A stretch of 13,805 nt of DNA from Candidatus Thorarchaeota archaeon (GTDB taxonomy: Archaea > Asgardarchaeota > Thorarchaeia > Thorarchaeales > Thorarchaeaceae): NCBI GenBank assembly GCA_046758445.1, contig JBHIAE010000068.1, forward strand, positions 1 to 13,805, read 5' to 3'. Positions 4,422 through 8,484 of this stretch are shown here, one piece after another. The translations under genes and the position numbers were made by a program. The notes beneath the pieces were generated by a model. It saw only the letters and a program-made list of their open reading frames with translations. It made no database searches and had not been told where the DNA came from. Positions within the stretch are counted from its first letter, which is position 1, and the number at the start of each line of letters is the position of its first letter.

Positions 4422-4832
4422 CTAGAGCTTCAGCTCTGCTTCACTCTTCCAGAGTCCATGAATGTTGCAGTATGAAGTGGCCATCAGAGTCCCTGACTTC
4501 TCGGTCTTAAAGACAAATACCGCGATTGGCTCACTGTATATCGTGCTCGAGTCAGCTCCTTGGGCCGACTCACCATGGTGGTCAAAAGTTGTGTACCCGA
4601 TCTCAATCGGAAACTTTTCTCCATCCGGGATGAAAAACGCGTCCGCCCATCGCATTGGACGTATCGAAGTGATATGTCATTTAATGTGGTGCGCCGTCGT
4701 ATTCGGATGGGGAATCTCTTTCCCTACTGAAACCCTGATTTCGACTTTTCCGTCCTCTATCTTCACAATCTCAATGACAGGAACATGTTTCTCGGTTTTC
4801 CAGTCATCAGTCTGTATCCATTTCTTCGACAT
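4422..4832 (-). CDS. sor: Superoxide reductase (neelaredoxin / 1Fe-SOR), two exons: 4832-4681 and 4650-4422, 126 aa after joining
   Basis: Exon 1 (not in ORF track): MSKKWIQTDDWKTEKHVPVIEIVKIEDGKVEIRVSVGKEIPHPNTTAHHI. Exon 2: (K)WADAFFIPDGEKFPIEIG...YCNIHGLWKSEAELKL. All iron ligands are present (E14, H16, H42, H48, C112, H115). GGAGG RBS upstream of ATG 4832. Confidence 0.92.
4651..4680 (-). other. Putative 30-nt bulge-helix-bulge (BHB) intron in the sor mRNA
   Basis: Minus-strand insert AUGACAUAUCACUUCGAUACGUCCAAUGCG carries an in-frame UGA. The junctions form a CAUU/AAUG 4-bp helix flanked by 3-nt bulges AAA and CGA, an exon stem CCA/UGG + CGC/GCG, and an internal hairpin GACAUAUC-ACUUC-GAUACGUC. 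Confidence 0.85.
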
Positions 4833-4916
4833 CTAATTTCCTCCCTCAAAGCAATAGGATACTCAGGATTTCGTTTCAGCGACATAAAACAGTTCGCTTA
4901 GGTACGAAGATAACCA

Positions 4917-6410
4917 TCAGTGTTCCAGCTTCTCCAGTTGACTAAGGGTCCATTTGCCTCTCTCTGACAGAGCATAGTAACTCCTCCGCCTGTTCTCGTG
5001 GGTCTGCTCTGTCCGAGTGCTGATTACAAGTCCGCTACTGGTGAGTTCGGTGAGATGCTGATACACACTCGGAATCTTGAGATTCAGTCCGTGCGTGTCC
5101 CTGAGTGATTTCCAAATACCATAGCCATATGACTCTCCTCCAGAGAGTATTCGGAGGATTTGGATCTTGGTCTGACCAAGCTTTGTAGATGCTCTTCGCC
5201 GTTCCACTCTGCTTAGGAGATGCTCTAGATTGCCCTTGCCCCTCACGAATGTCCGCGCTATCTCTGGATACTTCAGTCCCATTCCTGTAATGACACAGAC
5301 AACTTTGTCATCGTGATCAATACGGCCTGAGGCAACTAACTTACGAAGAACGGCCACAGTGGTTGCAGAAGCCGGTTCTGCGAAGACTCCTTCAAGTCTG
5401 GCGAGGAGCCTTACTGCTTCCAATATTTCTCTGTCTGATACTGCCATGGCCAAGCCACGGGATTCACGAATGGCCGCCAGTGCGGCGCGTCCACAGAGAG
5501 GGTTCTTCACTCCGATATCATATGCGACTGTTGTAACCATCGAAGCCGGAGCGATGGTCTTCTTTCCTTTCTCAAATGCATCAGCGATGGGTGAACAGCC
5601 AGTCGCCTGAGTACCCACTAGCCGGACTTCAGAGTCCAAGATCAAACCGATTTGCTCTAACTCTCTGAGCCCCTTCCAAATCATCGAAACGTGTCCGCCA
5701 TTACCCATAGGGGCTACAATCCAGTCAGGTGTGGTCCATCCCAGCTGGTCACAAATCTCATAGACGGTTGTCTTCTCCCCCTCCAAGAAATGAGGGTTCT
5801 GAGCCGTGACGTAATGGCTTCTACCACCTTCCCGCAGTGCCCTTGCCACTGCCTCATCATGATTCTTCACCACCTCAACATCAGAAGCATATGCCAAGAT
5901 CTGGTAGAACTTGCCAATGTCCACACTGCTCTGTTGCCCGATGAAGACTTTGCTCTTGAAACCTGCTCGAGCTGCATATGCCACAAGAGAAGCGGCCAGG
6001 TTGCCAGTGGAACCACAGCAGACAGACTTGATCCCACGTTCCTTTGCCGCAGAAATCTCAACTGCCGTCCCTCTGTCGATGAACGCTCCTGTCGGGTTGG
6101 TTGTCTCGTCCTTCAGATATAGCTCGTCTAGTTCGACCTCCTTGGCAAGTCGGTCCGACTTGTGAAGATATGTCCCTCCTTCCCCCAATGAAACCCTGTT
6201 GCCCTGTTTCGCAATGGGTAGAAGCTCGAAGTACTTCCAGACGCTGGGTCTGCGGTTCCTGAGCTTCCTTGCACTTAACCTGTTTCTGATACTTTCAAGG
6301 TCATATTCAATCTGTAGTGCGTTTCCACATTCAGTACAGATTGCCATGTACATCTCTGCCTTGTAGTCCTCACCGCAATGTGTACAAATGAGTCTGGAGA
6401 GAAATGACAT
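4917..6410 (-). CDS. Threonine-synthase-like (fold-type II PLP) domain lacking the catalytic Lys, fused to a C-terminal PadR-type winged HTH; probable transcriptional regulator
   Basis: N-terminal CxxC...CxxC ribbon, SLGEGGT, LYLKDETTNPTGAFIDRG (I where ThrC has K), STGNLAASLVAYAARAG, PMGNGG, EPASA, TGMGLK. C-terminal ILRILSGGESYGYGIWKSL...SVYQHLTEL..SGLV...RRRSYYALSERG is PadR-like. Confidence 0.85.
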   Translation of the reverse strand: MSFLSRLICTHCGEDYKAEMYMAICTECGNALQIEYDLESIRNRLSARKLRNRRPSVWKYFELLPIAKQGNRVSLGEGGTYLHKSDRLAKEVELDELYLKDETTNPTGAFIDRGTAVEISAAKERGIKSVCCGSTGNLAASLVAYAARAGFKSKVFIGQQSSVDIGKFYQILAYASDVEVVKNHDEAVARALREGGRSHYVTAQNPHFLEGEKTTVYEICDQLGWTTPDWIVAPMGNGGHVSMIWKGLRELEQIGLILDSEVRLVGTQATGCSPIADAFEKGKKTIAPASMVTTVAYDIGVKNPLCGRAALAAIRESRGLAMAVSDREILEAVRLLARLEGVFAEPASATTVAVLRKLVASGRIDHDDKVVCVITGMGLKYPEIARTFVRGKGNLEHLLSRVERRRASTKLGQTKIQILRILSGGESYGYGIWKSLRDTHGLNLKIPSVYQHLTELTSSGLVISTRTEQTHENRRRSYYALSERGKWTLSQLEKLEH

Positions 6411-7203: not shown

Positions 7204-8484
7204 ATGACTAACAGGCAGAAGCTTAAGATAGAAACGAAACGGCTCAATGAGATCAATGACTTCCTTCTCCGAGAAGACAATCCACTAGTCACCGGCATCA
7301 TTGAGGTGATTGAGAAATATGGGGGCGTCGATGAGATCAACAGTGAGGCTAGCGAAGCCCGAAAGCTTGAGAACCTTATGGCAATGCTGGAGAAGAAGAA
7401 CTCGTCATACGTGGCCGACCTGCAATGGTTGCAGGAGCAGCGTGACAACGATGCTTTCGTCAGCATTCCCGAGTACCGCCGCAAGGTCTTAGGAGAGAAA
7501 GCTGACAGCATGGACTTTGATGAGAGCTTCGCAGTCACGCTGGAGATCAGTGCGTGTCAGTACTTCCCTTGGGTGATTGAGGAGGCCAAACAATCAATCA
7601 CAAATCAGGAGCTAATGCCTAGGCGTTTCATAAGAGTACGAAACATGCAGGAACAGAGTAATGACGATGACGTCATTGCATTTGCAGCAGCTATGCAAAT
7701 AGTGGACTCGTCCTATGTCGAAACCCTTGATACAAAGGGAACCTTTCCAGGACCCGATGGTGCACCGGCTAACATCCACCTTGGGGGTCCAGATACAATC
7801 ACTGGATACTTTGGCGGAGTCGGCATGCCAAACGACTTCGCATTGAAATGGGCAGATGAATACCTACACTACTTCACAAAGTATGGGGTCAAGCAGGTCC
7901 TTAACATCAATCCGGGTAGTGTGCTCGTAGGCTACATGATGCACAAGTTGGGCATTGACATGGAGTTCAAGATCAGCGTCTTCATGGGTAACGACAATCC
8001 CTATGCATGTCTGTGGACTCTAATGACTGCGAAGATGTTCAGCAGAGAGGACGGCACTTCTCCTCTTATTGGGTTCAACCTTTCCAACAGTGTAAACAAC
8101 GAAACCATAGAGCTTGCTGCATATGCCAGGGAGAACTTTGGCTTCGAAGATGTAGTCAGGATTGAACACCACATCACTGAAACCTACAAGAGCATCGTCC
8201 GCCAGCCCTATGATCGTCTAGATGAACTAGTCGAGCTTGCTGACCACGTCAAGAACATCAGTGCCAAACATGAAGGTGGACCTCCGGACATAGATGGGAA
8301 ACGTGAACATCCTAGCGACATTCTAGATTACTTCAGACAGAAGTCCGAGGTCATCGAAGCAGGCGACATGCCCCATCTATTGAGAAACTATCTCGACAAG
8401 CATGACGCAGTGAATAGGACTGCTCGAGCACTGACAGAAAATGGCTTCTCCTTCATAGCAGCACAGAAACTACACAAGTTGTAG
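7204..8484 (+). CDS. Hypothetical protein (426 aa, soluble, enzyme-like composition)
   Basis: Long ORF with natural amino-acid composition and a GGGTG RBS upstream. I recognise no family motif with confidence. Confidence 0.8.
   Translation: MTNRQKLKIETKRLNEINDFLLREDNPLVTGIIEVIEKYGGVDEINSEASEARKLENLMAMLEKKNSSYVADLQWLQEQRDNDAFVSIPEYRRKVLGEKADSMDFDESFAVTLEISACQYFPWVIEEAKQSITNQELMPRRFIRVRNMQEQSNDDDVIAFAAAMQIVDSSYVETLDTKGTFPGPDGAPANIHLGGPDTITGYFGGVGMPNDFALKWADEYLHYFTKYGVKQVLNINPGSVLVGYMMHKLGIDMEFKISVFMGNDNPYACLWTLMTAKMFSREDGTSPLIGFNLSNSVNNETIELAAYARENFGFEDVVRIEHHITETYKSIVRQPYDRLDELVELADHVKNISAKHEGGPPDIDGKREHPSDILDYFRQKSEVIEAGDMPHLLRNYLDKHDAVNRTARALTENGFSFIAAQKLHKL

What the first reader, a model, noticed from the sequence alone, without database searches (positions are those of the whole stretch)
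4651..4680. Bulge-helix-bulge intron interrupting a protein-coding gene (superoxide reductase)
Seen: the minus-strand mRNA reads ...CGC A CCA CAUU AA^A U GACAUAUC ACUUC GAUACGUC C AAUG CG^A UGG GCG... CAUU pairs with AAUG (4-bp central helix), and each strand is followed by a 3-nt bulge (AAA, CGA). The exons pair outside (CCA/UGG, CGC/GCG), and the insert closes in an 8-position stem with one mismatch, preceded by a U-C mismatch next to the bulge. Established: archaeal tRNA splicing endonuclease (EndA) cuts BHB motifs after the second nucleotide of each bulge and RtcB ligates the exons. The classic mRNA example is the crenarchaeal cbf5 intron. Applying that rule removes exactly 30 nt and gives CAC AUU AAA UGG GCG = H-I-K-W-A. 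This restores the conserved SOR HHI(K/R)W segment with no indel and all metal ligands intact. Inference: this is an EndA-spliced mRNA intron in a non-cbf5 gene, which gene callers would miss or call a pseudogene.
Basis: partly seen in the sequence, partly recalled or inferred. Interest (0 to 1): 0.95.

Follow-up and report, generated by a model that had tools for sequence, protein, structure and literature searches.

The report
Spliced mini-intron in archaeal SOR gene
The only superoxide reductase gene of this Asgard (Thorarchaeota) archaeon is interrupted by a 30-base hairpin shaped like a tRNA intron, and comparison with relatives indicates it is cut out of the mRNA by the tRNA-splicing enzymes, which papers document for only one other archaeal protein-coding sequence (cbf5).

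Summary
On the minus strand, 30 nt (4680-4651, in-frame UGA at 4679-4677) split a 126-codon 1Fe superoxide reductase (SOR) gene after HHIK. [quoted passage not shown]

- About 74 family relatives have the uninterrupted gene.
- Four divergent insert alleles (30, 30, 30 and 31 nt) sit at the identical site in sister species, in many independent assemblies.
- The helices keep pairing through four compensatory changes; one links a synonymous exon base to an intron base.
- Both exons stay under strong purifying selection (dN/dS 0.02-0.08).
- The 31-nt allele shifts the frame, so the insert cannot be translated.
- The genome encodes a crenarchaeal-type catalytic subunit and a His-less structural subunit of the splicing endonuclease EndA, plus the ligase RtcB. 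It also has intron-rich tRNAs, a 30-nt insert in its 16S rRNA and a 32-nt BHB insert in hutU.
- This SOR gene is the only one found in the genome.

I found no RNA evidence, so splicing is inferred (confidence about 0.85). Papers describe a coding-sequence BHB intron only for crenarchaeal cbf5. This scan has already flagged similar mini-introns in other Thorarchaeota genes on other DNA. The 31-nt allele needs a non-canonical 4-nt bulge, which remains unexplained.

The parts
4681..4832 (-). SOR exon 1: ATG at 4832-4830 through the first two bases of the Lys51 codon. Encodes M1 to K51 and carries the inferred ligands E14, H16, H42 and H48.
   Evidence: Pfam PF01880 profile 2-45, E 5.5e-11. Ligand assignment is by homology to P. 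furiosus SOR (own knowledge).
4840..4845 (-). Shine-Dalgarno-like GGGAGG, 7 nt (4839-4833) upstream of the SOR start codon.
   Evidence: Read directly. Function is inferred.
4651..4680 (-). 30-nt BHB mini-intron (allele A), AUGACAUAUCACUUCGAUACGUCCAAUGCG.
4677..4679 (-). In-frame UGA, the first full codon of the intron. It ends translation of unspliced mRNA after 51 residues. These three bases are invariant in all four alleles.
   Evidence: columns 16-18 invariant.
4683..4686 (-). Central helix H, exon strand CAUU. Its last base is the synonymous third position of Ile50.
   Evidence: pair 12-39 covaries, U-A in allele A and C-G in alleles B, C and D.
4680..4682 (-). 5' bulge AAA. The predicted cut lies between 4681 and 4680.
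   Evidence: The rule of cutting between the 2nd and 3rd bulge residue is stated in PMC2738675.
4657..4679 (-). Intron hairpin h': U GACAUAUC / loop ACUUC / GAUACGUC C. 7 of 9 positions pair in allele A and 9 of 9 in allele C.
4653..4656 (-). Central helix H', intron strand AAUG.
4650..4652 (-). 3' bulge CGA. The predicted cut lies between 4651 and 4650.
4687..4693 (-). Outer exon-exon helix h, 5' strand: CGC A CCA (His48/His49 codons).
   Evidence: RNAalifold predicts this helix independently.
4644..4649 (-). Outer exon-exon helix h, 3' strand: UGG GCG (Trp52/Ala53 codons).
4422..4650 (-). SOR exon 2: third base of Lys51, then W52 to L126 and the stop codon (4424-4422). Carries the inferred ligands C112 and H115.
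   Evidence: Pfam PF01880 reaching profile position 97 of 98, E 5.3e-10.

Best explanation
Window 4680-4651 (minus strand) is a 30-nt archaeal bulge-helix-bulge intron in the pre-mRNA of the genome's only detected superoxide reductase gene. Shown here: the exon bases CCA-CAUU-AA and A-UGG pair with the intron to give an outer helix, a 4-bp central helix, two 3-nt bulges and a 9-position inner hairpin. Inferred: the heterotetrameric (alpha-beta)2 splicing endonuclease EndA cuts after the second base of each bulge (AA^A and CG^A). RtcB then joins the exons, recreating the AAA Lys51 codon and an mRNA for a normal 126-residue 1Fe-SOR; the intron is probably released as a small circle. Unspliced mRNA would stop at the UGA that begins the intron and give a 51-residue fragment lacking the Cys and His ligands. 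The intron is young and lineage-restricted: it occurs in a few species of one Thorarchaeota genus. It is one of several such mini-introns in this genome.
For: 1. Seamless join. Exon 1 matches PF01880 profile positions 2-45 and exon 2's best stretch matches 63-97. About 74 of 86 family genomes have an uninterrupted 378-nt gene reading HHIKW at this exact point.
2. Four homologous alleles at the identical site. Allele A: G000 plus Logan runs SRR29324601 and SRR29324602. Allele B: G012 plus 18 contigs from JGI, ENA, Logan and NCBI. Allele C: GCA_975970015.1. Allele D: G007 (= GCA_964345915.1) plus GCA_012974965.1.
3. The named BHB structure pairs 90.6% of cells, against 21-41% when partners are slid. 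Four pairs changed on both sides, including exon Ile third base with intron base. RNAalifold independently predicts the outer helix and the hairpin.
4. Allele D is 31 nt in two distinct strains, so the insert cannot be a translated insertion.
5. Both exons are under purifying selection among intron-bearing alleles. B vs C: dN/dS 0.02 at dS 0.34. D vs D2: 0.06. Exon 2 alone: 0.02-0.08.
6. Machinery is present. There are two PF01974 genes. One is closest to the A. pernix and P. aerophilum catalytic subunits and aligns without gaps through the region that I take, from memory, to be the Crenarchaea-specific loop. The other lacks the catalytic His. This agrees with the published (alpha-beta)2 plus L1-loop EndA of Asgard archaea (PMC5829648). 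RtcB is present.
7. Same-genome precedents. 20 of 36 predicted tRNAs carry introns. A 30-nt hairpin insert sits in a universally conserved 16S site. A 32-nt BHB insert splits hutU, with Urocanase_N profile 3-44 on one side and 47-126 on the other.
8. This is the sole PF01880 match in a 92.7%-complete genome.
Against: No RNA-level evidence was obtained. In alleles B and C the central helix has an A.G mismatch (3 of 4 pairs, the 'relaxed' class). Allele A has a U.C mismatch where the hairpin meets the central helix. Allele D cannot be excised in frame by any canonical register: it needs a 4-nt 3' bulge cut after its third base. There are only four distinct alleles, so the covariation statistics are thin (5 of 500 shuffles reach the observed values). 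The intron has no detectable sequence relatives elsewhere in the genome, and its loop motif is not enriched (20 hairpins against 11-19 in controls). It therefore cannot be tied to the tRNA and rRNA introns by sequence.
Confidence: 0.85

Rival explanations
1. The gene is a pseudogene, inactivated by a 30-nt insertion that happens to be a hairpin. The in-frame stop truncates SOR and nothing removes the insert.
For: The insert carries an in-frame TGA. No spliced product was found in any database searched. Some SOR genes elsewhere are truly broken at or near this codon (L181 has TGG changed to TGA, L182 has frameshifts).
Against: The insert has persisted through speciation into four alleles while both exons kept intact frames with dN/dS 0.02-0.08, including downstream of the stop or frameshift. 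Compensatory changes preserve the RNA structure. It is the only SOR match in G000 and, with this query, in G012 and G007. Chance BHB geometry at the exact homology-defined borders is about 4e-5.
Confidence: 0.07
2. The gene is a split gene whose two halves (51 aa and about 75 aa) are translated separately and assemble into a two-piece SOR.
For: Gene callers find an ATG-initiated downstream ORF in alleles A, B and C.
Against: The downstream starts are not homologous: MRW in A, MQQRKW in B, MHQRQW in C. In allele D the first ATG lies after WCDLF, so conserved residues would be lost. No Shine-Dalgarno-like motif precedes 4655. This model does not explain the conserved BHB pairing between exon and insert.
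Confidence: 0.03
3. The interruption is handled during translation: UGA read-through giving a 10-residue insertion, or ribosomal bypassing of the hairpin as in T4 gene 60.
For: Three alleles are multiples of three. Allele B has matching AAA codons on both sides of the insert. A stop codon followed by a hairpin resembles the gene 60 gap.
Against: Allele D is 31 nt, so read-through fails. The putative insert peptides are unrelated (HITSIRPMR, CINSMQQRK) and would sit three residues after a metal-binding His. Matching take-off and landing codons are absent in alleles A, C and D.
Confidence: 0.02
4. The insert is an assembly or binning artefact.
For: The genome is a 113-contig MAG.
Against: The identical allele A sequence occurs in three contigs, from independent assemblies of two Logan runs. 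Allele B occurs in 18 contigs from four data sources, and allele D in two NCBI assemblies of different strains.
Confidence: 0.01

Closest known systems
BHB intron in the cbf5 (pseudouridine synthase) pre-mRNA of Desulfurococcales and Sulfolobales (Watanabe 2002; Yoshinari 2006; Yokobori 2009, PMC2738675)
   Same: Both are short introns inside an archaeal coding sequence whose borders lie between the 2nd and 3rd residues of the two bulges of a BHB-like fold. Both are cut by a hetero-oligomeric EndA, are patchy among related species (gain and loss), and are mis-called by gene finders.
   Different: The gene differs (SOR, not cbf5) and so does the phylum (Asgard/Thorarchaeota, not Crenarchaeota). 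This intron is restricted to a few species of one genus rather than ancestral to two orders. Splicing here is inferred, whereas cbf5 splicing was shown by cDNA and in vitro cleavage.
BHB intron in the 5' UTR of Haloferax volcanii HVO_1309 mRNA (Schwarz 2020, PMC7714728)
   Same: Both are EndA substrates within an mRNA rather than a tRNA or rRNA.
   Different: That intron lies in the untranslated leader, so removal does not rebuild a reading frame. Its enzyme is the homodimeric alpha'2 EndA.
Non-canonical tRNA introns of Asgard archaea and Thermoproteales (Marck and Grosjean 2003; Kaneta 2018, PMC5829648; bioRxiv 10.64898/2026.10.13.758758)
   Same: The motif definition is the same (hBHBh' or relaxed, with half the motif supplied by the exon). 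The (alpha-beta)2 EndA with L1 loop is the same. Gains are likewise frequent and lineage-specific. This genome's tRNA introns are of similar length, about 22-36 nt.
   Different: The host RNA here is a protein-coding message, so splicing must precede or compete with translation. The preprint's text does not contain the word mRNA and mentions protein-coding genes only as neighbours of tRNA loci.
Earlier notes of this scan: Thorarchaeota mini-introns in oppB, actin, EF-1alpha, tfb, porA, hutU and peroxiredoxin (AI notes)
   Same: These are also hairpin inserts of about 30-33 nt with BHB geometry in coding sequences of the same phylum.
   Different: They lie in different genes and genomes. Two of those notes claim metatranscriptome junctions, which I did not verify. 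I checked only the hutU case in this genome.

Membership tests
Archaeal BHB intron (EndA/RtcB-spliced) | [quoted passage not shown] | tested here: met
   Allele A (this window): CAUU/AAUG, 4 of 4 pairs. Allele D: CAUC/GAUG, 4 of 4. Alleles B and C: CAUC/GAGG, 3 of 4 with an A.G mismatch (relaxed class).
Archaeal BHB intron (EndA/RtcB-spliced) | Two 3-nt bulges on opposite strands, each holding a cut site | tested here: met
   Bulges are AAA and CGA in this window, AAA/AAA in allele B and AAA/CAA in allele C. Allele D has a 4-nt 3' bulge (UAGA), so the feature is not met for that allele.
Archaeal BHB intron (EndA/RtcB-spliced) | [quoted passage not shown] | tested here: met
   h: CCA/UGG plus CGC/GCG. 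h': 7 to 9 of 9 pairs. Both were also predicted by RNAalifold without constraints.
Archaeal BHB intron (EndA/RtcB-spliced) | Cutting between the 2nd and 3rd bulge residues restores the functional sequence | tested here: met
   The cuts remove 30 nt and give HHIKW, identical to about 74 uninterrupted orthologues. The rule is taken from PMC2738675.
Archaeal BHB intron (EndA/RtcB-spliced) | Structure maintained by compensatory substitutions among homologous introns | tested here: met
   Four pairs changed on both sides across four alleles. 90.6% of cells pair, against 21-41% for slid controls. The sample is small.
Archaeal BHB intron (EndA/RtcB-spliced) | Host encodes the splicing endonuclease and the RtcB ligase | tested here: met
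   Two PF01974 genes: an alpha-like subunit with the Tyr/His/Lys context and a beta-like subunit lacking the His. One PF01139 RtcB gene.
Archaeal BHB intron (EndA/RtcB-spliced) | Intron is physically excised from the RNA (spliced junction, circular intron) | not testable with these tools
   No RNA reads are available. The look-ups for spliced forms found nothing, which is uninformative.
cbf5 pre-mRNA intron family | Located in the cbf5 gene of Desulfurococcales or Sulfolobales at the conserved cbf5 site | tested here: not met
   The host gene is PF01880 SOR in a Thorarchaeota genome. It works like the cbf5 intron but is not a homologue of it.
1Fe superoxide reductase (Desulfoferrodox domain, class II SORL) | PF01880 domain with the His4-Cys iron site and the Glu of the EKH motif | tested here: met
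   PF01880 hits on both exons. The spliced translation has E14, H16, H42, H48, C112 and H115. Assignment of these as ligands is by homology to P. furiosus SOR (own knowledge).

The most novel reading that the evidence does not exclude
Thorarchaeota, close prokaryotic relatives of eukaryotes, carry a turnover population of about 30-nt tRNA-type introns. These colonise ordinary protein-coding genes (here SOR and hutU in one genome) as well as tRNAs and rRNA, and they are gained or lost between species of one genus. Expression of these genes would then depend on EndA/RtcB splicing of mRNA in a cell without a nucleus. The invariant UGA at the start of the intron would act as a fail-safe against translating unspliced message. 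The lineage's EndA would also tolerate a 4-nt bulge (the 31-nt allele).
Probability: 0.6. Interest if true: 0.9.

Novelty: new member of a known kind. Interest (0 to 1): 0.8.

Why it matters
For more than twenty years the literature has held one confirmed BHB intron inside an archaeal coding sequence (cbf5) and one in a 5' UTR. A second, unrelated gene in a different phylum, with intron-plus and intron-minus sister species and four covarying alleles, shows that mRNA is a regular substrate of the tRNA-splicing machinery in Asgard archaea.

This has practical and conceptual consequences. Practically, gene callers split such genes into fragments or pseudogenes: public records-aa plus 70-80-aa pieces. 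Metabolic reconstructions of these MAGs therefore under-count functions such as oxygen defence.

Conceptually, it raises the question of how a cell with coupled transcription and translation copes with introns in messages. That question is relevant to ideas on the origin of the nucleus. The intron-plus and intron-minus sister alleles offer a natural system for studying intron gain and loss. The 31-nt allele is a ready-made test of how the broad-specificity EndA places its 3' cut.

Tried and rejected
- Spliced-junction pattern GCRCACCACATYAAATGGKSSGAY in JGI metagenome contigs: 0 hits. This is uninformative about splicing.
- Protein look-ups for a 126-aa product identical to any spliced allele: none. 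The best database protein is only 88-90% identical.
- My genome-contig scan with a 14-base pattern was far too unspecific.
- A second metagenome scan for more alleles found only alleles B and D again.
- BLAST of the four intron sequences against G000 found no paralogues. The two marginal hits (C57, C42) do not look like introns.
- The loop motif C-A[ACU]UUC-G on hairpins of at least 7 of 8 pairs is not enriched: 20 against 11-19 in controls. I therefore dropped the idea of a sequence family.
- A brute-force BHB plus ORF-joining scan of G000 gave 1,282 and then 105 candidates. The ten with the longest flanking frames were all adjacent independent genes by Pfam. Only hutU was recovered, and SOR allele A itself failed the strict stem filter.
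- P0133/L181 and P0134/L182, short SOR ORFs ending at HHI[RA], are a TGG-to-TGA change and frameshifts, not introns.
- The interrupted G004 match (L024) is a scaffold gap of Ns.
- No 12-mer or longer spanning the spliced junction occurs elsewhere in G000. There is thus no sign of an RNA-guided nuclease guide aimed at the intron-less SOR site.
- Origin of the intron: the exon tree places allele A with intron-less G010, apart from the B/C/D clade, which needs at least two changes. However, an AU test does not reject one clade of all intron-bearing alleles (p = 0.115). Single versus multiple gain or loss remains undecided.
- Rfam and tRNA scans of the window found nothing.

Full report
**Observation.**
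A 51-codon ORF (4832-4680) ends HHIK and runs into TGA (4679-4677). A second ORF (4655-4422) reads MRWADAFF.... Both pieces hit the Pfam superoxide reductase (SOR) domain PF01880. Exon 1 covers profile positions 2-45, and exon 2's best stretch (residues 24-69) covers 63-97 of 98.

Deleting 4680-4651 joins AA|A into a Lys codon. The result is a 126-residue protein reading ...PHPNTTAHHIKWADAFF....

The RNA geometry is as described:
- an outer exon-exon helix, CGC-A-CCA with UGG-GCG;
- a central helix, CAUU with AAUG;
- two bulges, AAA and CGA;
- an inner hairpin, U-GACAUAUC / ACUUC / GAUACGUC-C, with one A.C and one U.C mismatch.

The unconstrained MFE fold finds the outer helix and the hairpin. 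It leaves the 4-bp helix open and is not unusually stable (z = -0.89), which is normal for this motif. The informative statistic is the coincidence of the motif with the borders set by homology. Only 4e-5 of 200,000 shuffles of the insert give 4/4 central pairs plus at least 7/9 hairpin pairs at those borders. A comparable filter fires about 1e-4 times per position and length across the genome.

**Host.**
The window is contig C68 of a 3.25-Mb, 113-contig genome that is 92.7% complete. Source names on the closest SOR proteins are Candidatus Thorarchaeota.

The genome has two tRNA-intron-endonuclease genes.
- The 195-aa product is most similar to the catalytic subunits of the Aeropyrum pernix and Pyrobaculum aerophilum heterotetramers (3P1Z_B at 3e-45, 2ZYZ_B). 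It aligns without gaps through the segment that I take, from memory, to hold the Crenarchaea-specific loop.
- The 250-aa product has the fold but lacks the catalytic His.

[quoted passage not shown] RtcB is present. Aragorn predicts introns in 20 of 36 tRNAs.

**Comparative evidence.**
I searched 86 genomes of the same family with the read-through protein. 77 have a match at E <= 1e-20, and about 74 of them have an uninterrupted 369-384-nt gene that reads HHIKW at this point (two more matches are cut by a scaffold gap or a contig end). Only G000, G012 and G007 are interrupted here, and all three belong to the same genus.

Exact-protein look-ups of the 51-aa exon-1 ORFs then recovered the same loci from many independent assemblies:

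| Allele | Length | Sources |
|---|---|---|
| A (this window) | 30 nt | G000, plus Logan assemblies of SRR29324601 and SRR29324602 |
| B | 30 nt | G012, plus 18 contigs from JGI, ENA, Logan and NCBI |
| C | 30 nt | GCA_975970015.1 |
| D | 31 nt | G007 (= GCA_964345915.1), plus GCA_012974965.1, a different strain |

The insert is therefore real DNA, sits at one site and is homologous across the alleles. They share AUGA at the 5' end and a UUCGAU loop-stem junction.

On the four-allele alignment (A1), the BHB structure I named pairs 90.6% of cells. When the 3' partners are slid by 1-3 columns, only 21-41% pair. Four pairs have changes on both sides.
- Three of these lie in the hairpin.
- The fourth lies in the central helix. 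There the synonymous third base of the Ile50 codon (U in allele A, C in B, C and D) covaries with the first base of the intron strand (A versus G).

Only 5 of 500 column shuffles reach the observed values. With four sequences this is suggestive, not conclusive. RNAalifold independently predicts the outer helix and the 9-bp hairpin.

**Selection.**
If the insert had killed the gene, the exons should have decayed since the alleles diverged. They have not (Nei-Gojobori estimates):
- B vs C: dN/dS 0.02 at dS 0.34.
- D vs its sister strain: 0.06 at dS 0.11.
- Exon 2 alone, downstream of the stop or frameshift: 0.02-0.08.

All alleles keep full-length open exons and identical C-termini. This SOR gene is the only PF01880 match in G000. 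With this query, it is also the only SOR match in G012 and G007.

Allele D settles the translational alternatives. A 31-nt insert shifts the frame, yet exon 2 is conserved in the frame reached only by removing all 31 nt.

**Same-genome precedents.**
- The 16S rRNA gene is 1,588 nt against a 1,478-position model. It carries a 30-nt hairpin between the universally conserved GUCGUAA and CAAGGU, and its ACUUC loop is the same as in SOR allele A.
- The urocanase gene hutU is split by a 32-nt insert with BHB-like geometry: ACGG-AG^A...CCGG-CG^A. Its two halves hit Urocanase_N profile positions 3-44 and 47-126.

**Mechanism.**
Shown: the motif, its conservation, the machinery genes and the need to remove the insert to make the conserved protein.

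Inferred:
- EndA cuts at AA^A and CG^A. The rule of cutting between the 2nd and 3rd bulge residues is stated for cbf5 in PMC2738675.
- RtcB ligates the exons.
- The intron is probably circularised.
- Unspliced mRNA terminates at the UGA that forms intron bases 2-4.

That UGA is invariant in all four alleles, while its pairing partners vary. This is compatible with selection for a fail-safe stop. I rate a true regulatory switch as unproven and unlikely to be the reason the intron exists.

**Open points.**
1. No register of allele D with a 4-bp helix and two 3-nt bulges removes 31 nt. It needs either a 4-nt 3' bulge (UAGA, cut after G) or a 5-bp helix plus a bulged U. Either this EndA places the 3' cut relative to the outer helix, or something is missing from the model.
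2. Alleles B and C have an A.G mismatch in the central helix, which puts them in the published 'relaxed' class (definitions in bioRxiv 10.64898/2026.10.13.758758).
3. Origin. The exon tree puts allele A next to intron-less G010 and puts B/C/D next to intron-less G006, so at least two events are implied. An AU test does not reject a single clade of intron-bearing alleles (p = 0.115).
4. The intron has no sequence relatives elsewhere in the genome, and its loop motif is not enriched. There is no guide-like copy of the spliced junction.

**Comparison with the literature.**
Papers in the library describe one BHB intron inside an archaeal coding sequence, cbf5 of Desulfurococcales and Sulfolobales (PMC2738675). 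They describe one in a 5' UTR, HVO_1309 (PMC7714728, which states that cbf5 was the only earlier mRNA case). The 2026 preprint on Asgard tRNA introns does not contain the word mRNA and mentions protein-coding genes only as neighbours of tRNA loci.

The SOR intron works like the cbf5 intron but is not homologous to it. The gene, phylum and age all differ.

Within this scan, similar mini-introns in other Thorarchaeota genes have already been noted on other DNA. Two of those notes claim metatranscriptome junctions. I did not verify them, and they are not counted as evidence here.

**Verdict.**
I put 0.85 on a spliced BHB mRNA intron. In kind it is a new member of a known but nearly empty class, and it is of high interest.

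Noticed in passing
L185:2433-2464 (G000:C1:123179-123210, minus strand): The urocanase gene hutU of the same genome is split by a 32-nt hairpin insert with BHB-like geometry (ACGG AG^A ... CCGG CG^A). The halves hit Urocanase_N profile 3-44 and 47-126, and the join reads YGESGQ. This is a second mRNA mini-intron candidate in this genome.
   Followed up: partly
L186:3053-3082 (G000:C2:123759-123788): The 16S rRNA gene carries a 30-nt hairpin insert between the universally conserved GUCGUAA and CAAGGU near its 3' end. Its 9-bp stem has the same ACUUC loop as SOR allele A. The gene is about 110 nt longer than the Rfam model, so more inserts are likely.
   Followed up: partly
L180:1653-1683 and L179:1653-1683 (allele D, G007 lineage): This is a 31-nt version of the SOR intron with a perfect CAUC/GAUG central helix but a 4-nt 3' bulge (UAGA). 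No canonical BHB register removes 31 nt, yet exon 2 is under purifying selection in that frame.
   Followed up: partly
window 4917-6410 (minus strand): The gene upstream of SOR encodes a 497-aa fusion of a PLP-dependent (PALP, threonine-synthase-like) enzyme with a C-terminal PadR winged-helix domain. It is syntenic with SOR in several related contigs (8 of 9 loci examined).
   Followed up: no
window 7204-8484 (plus strand): A 426-aa ORF has no Pfam match at E <= 0.01.
   Followed up: no
L181:1501-1665 (JGI 3300031928 contig): A SOR gene next to a Desulfoferrod_N ORF has TGA in place of the conserved Trp codon (HHIR*IRLFF) and continues in frame. It could be a TGA-recoding organism or a pseudogene. 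It is not an intron.
   Followed up: no
G000 contigs C8:70841-71536, C25:9538-11106, C34:3011-4385: Aragorn calls tRNA-Val, tRNA-Ile and tRNA-Arg genes with 599-, 1472- and 1285-nt introns. These could be large introns or false joins. I did not examine them.
   Followed up: no
window 4677-4679 and alignment A1 columns 16-18: The UGA at intron bases 2-4 is invariant in all four alleles, although the bases it pairs with vary and sometimes mismatch. This hints at selection for an immediate stop in unspliced mRNA.
   Followed up: partly
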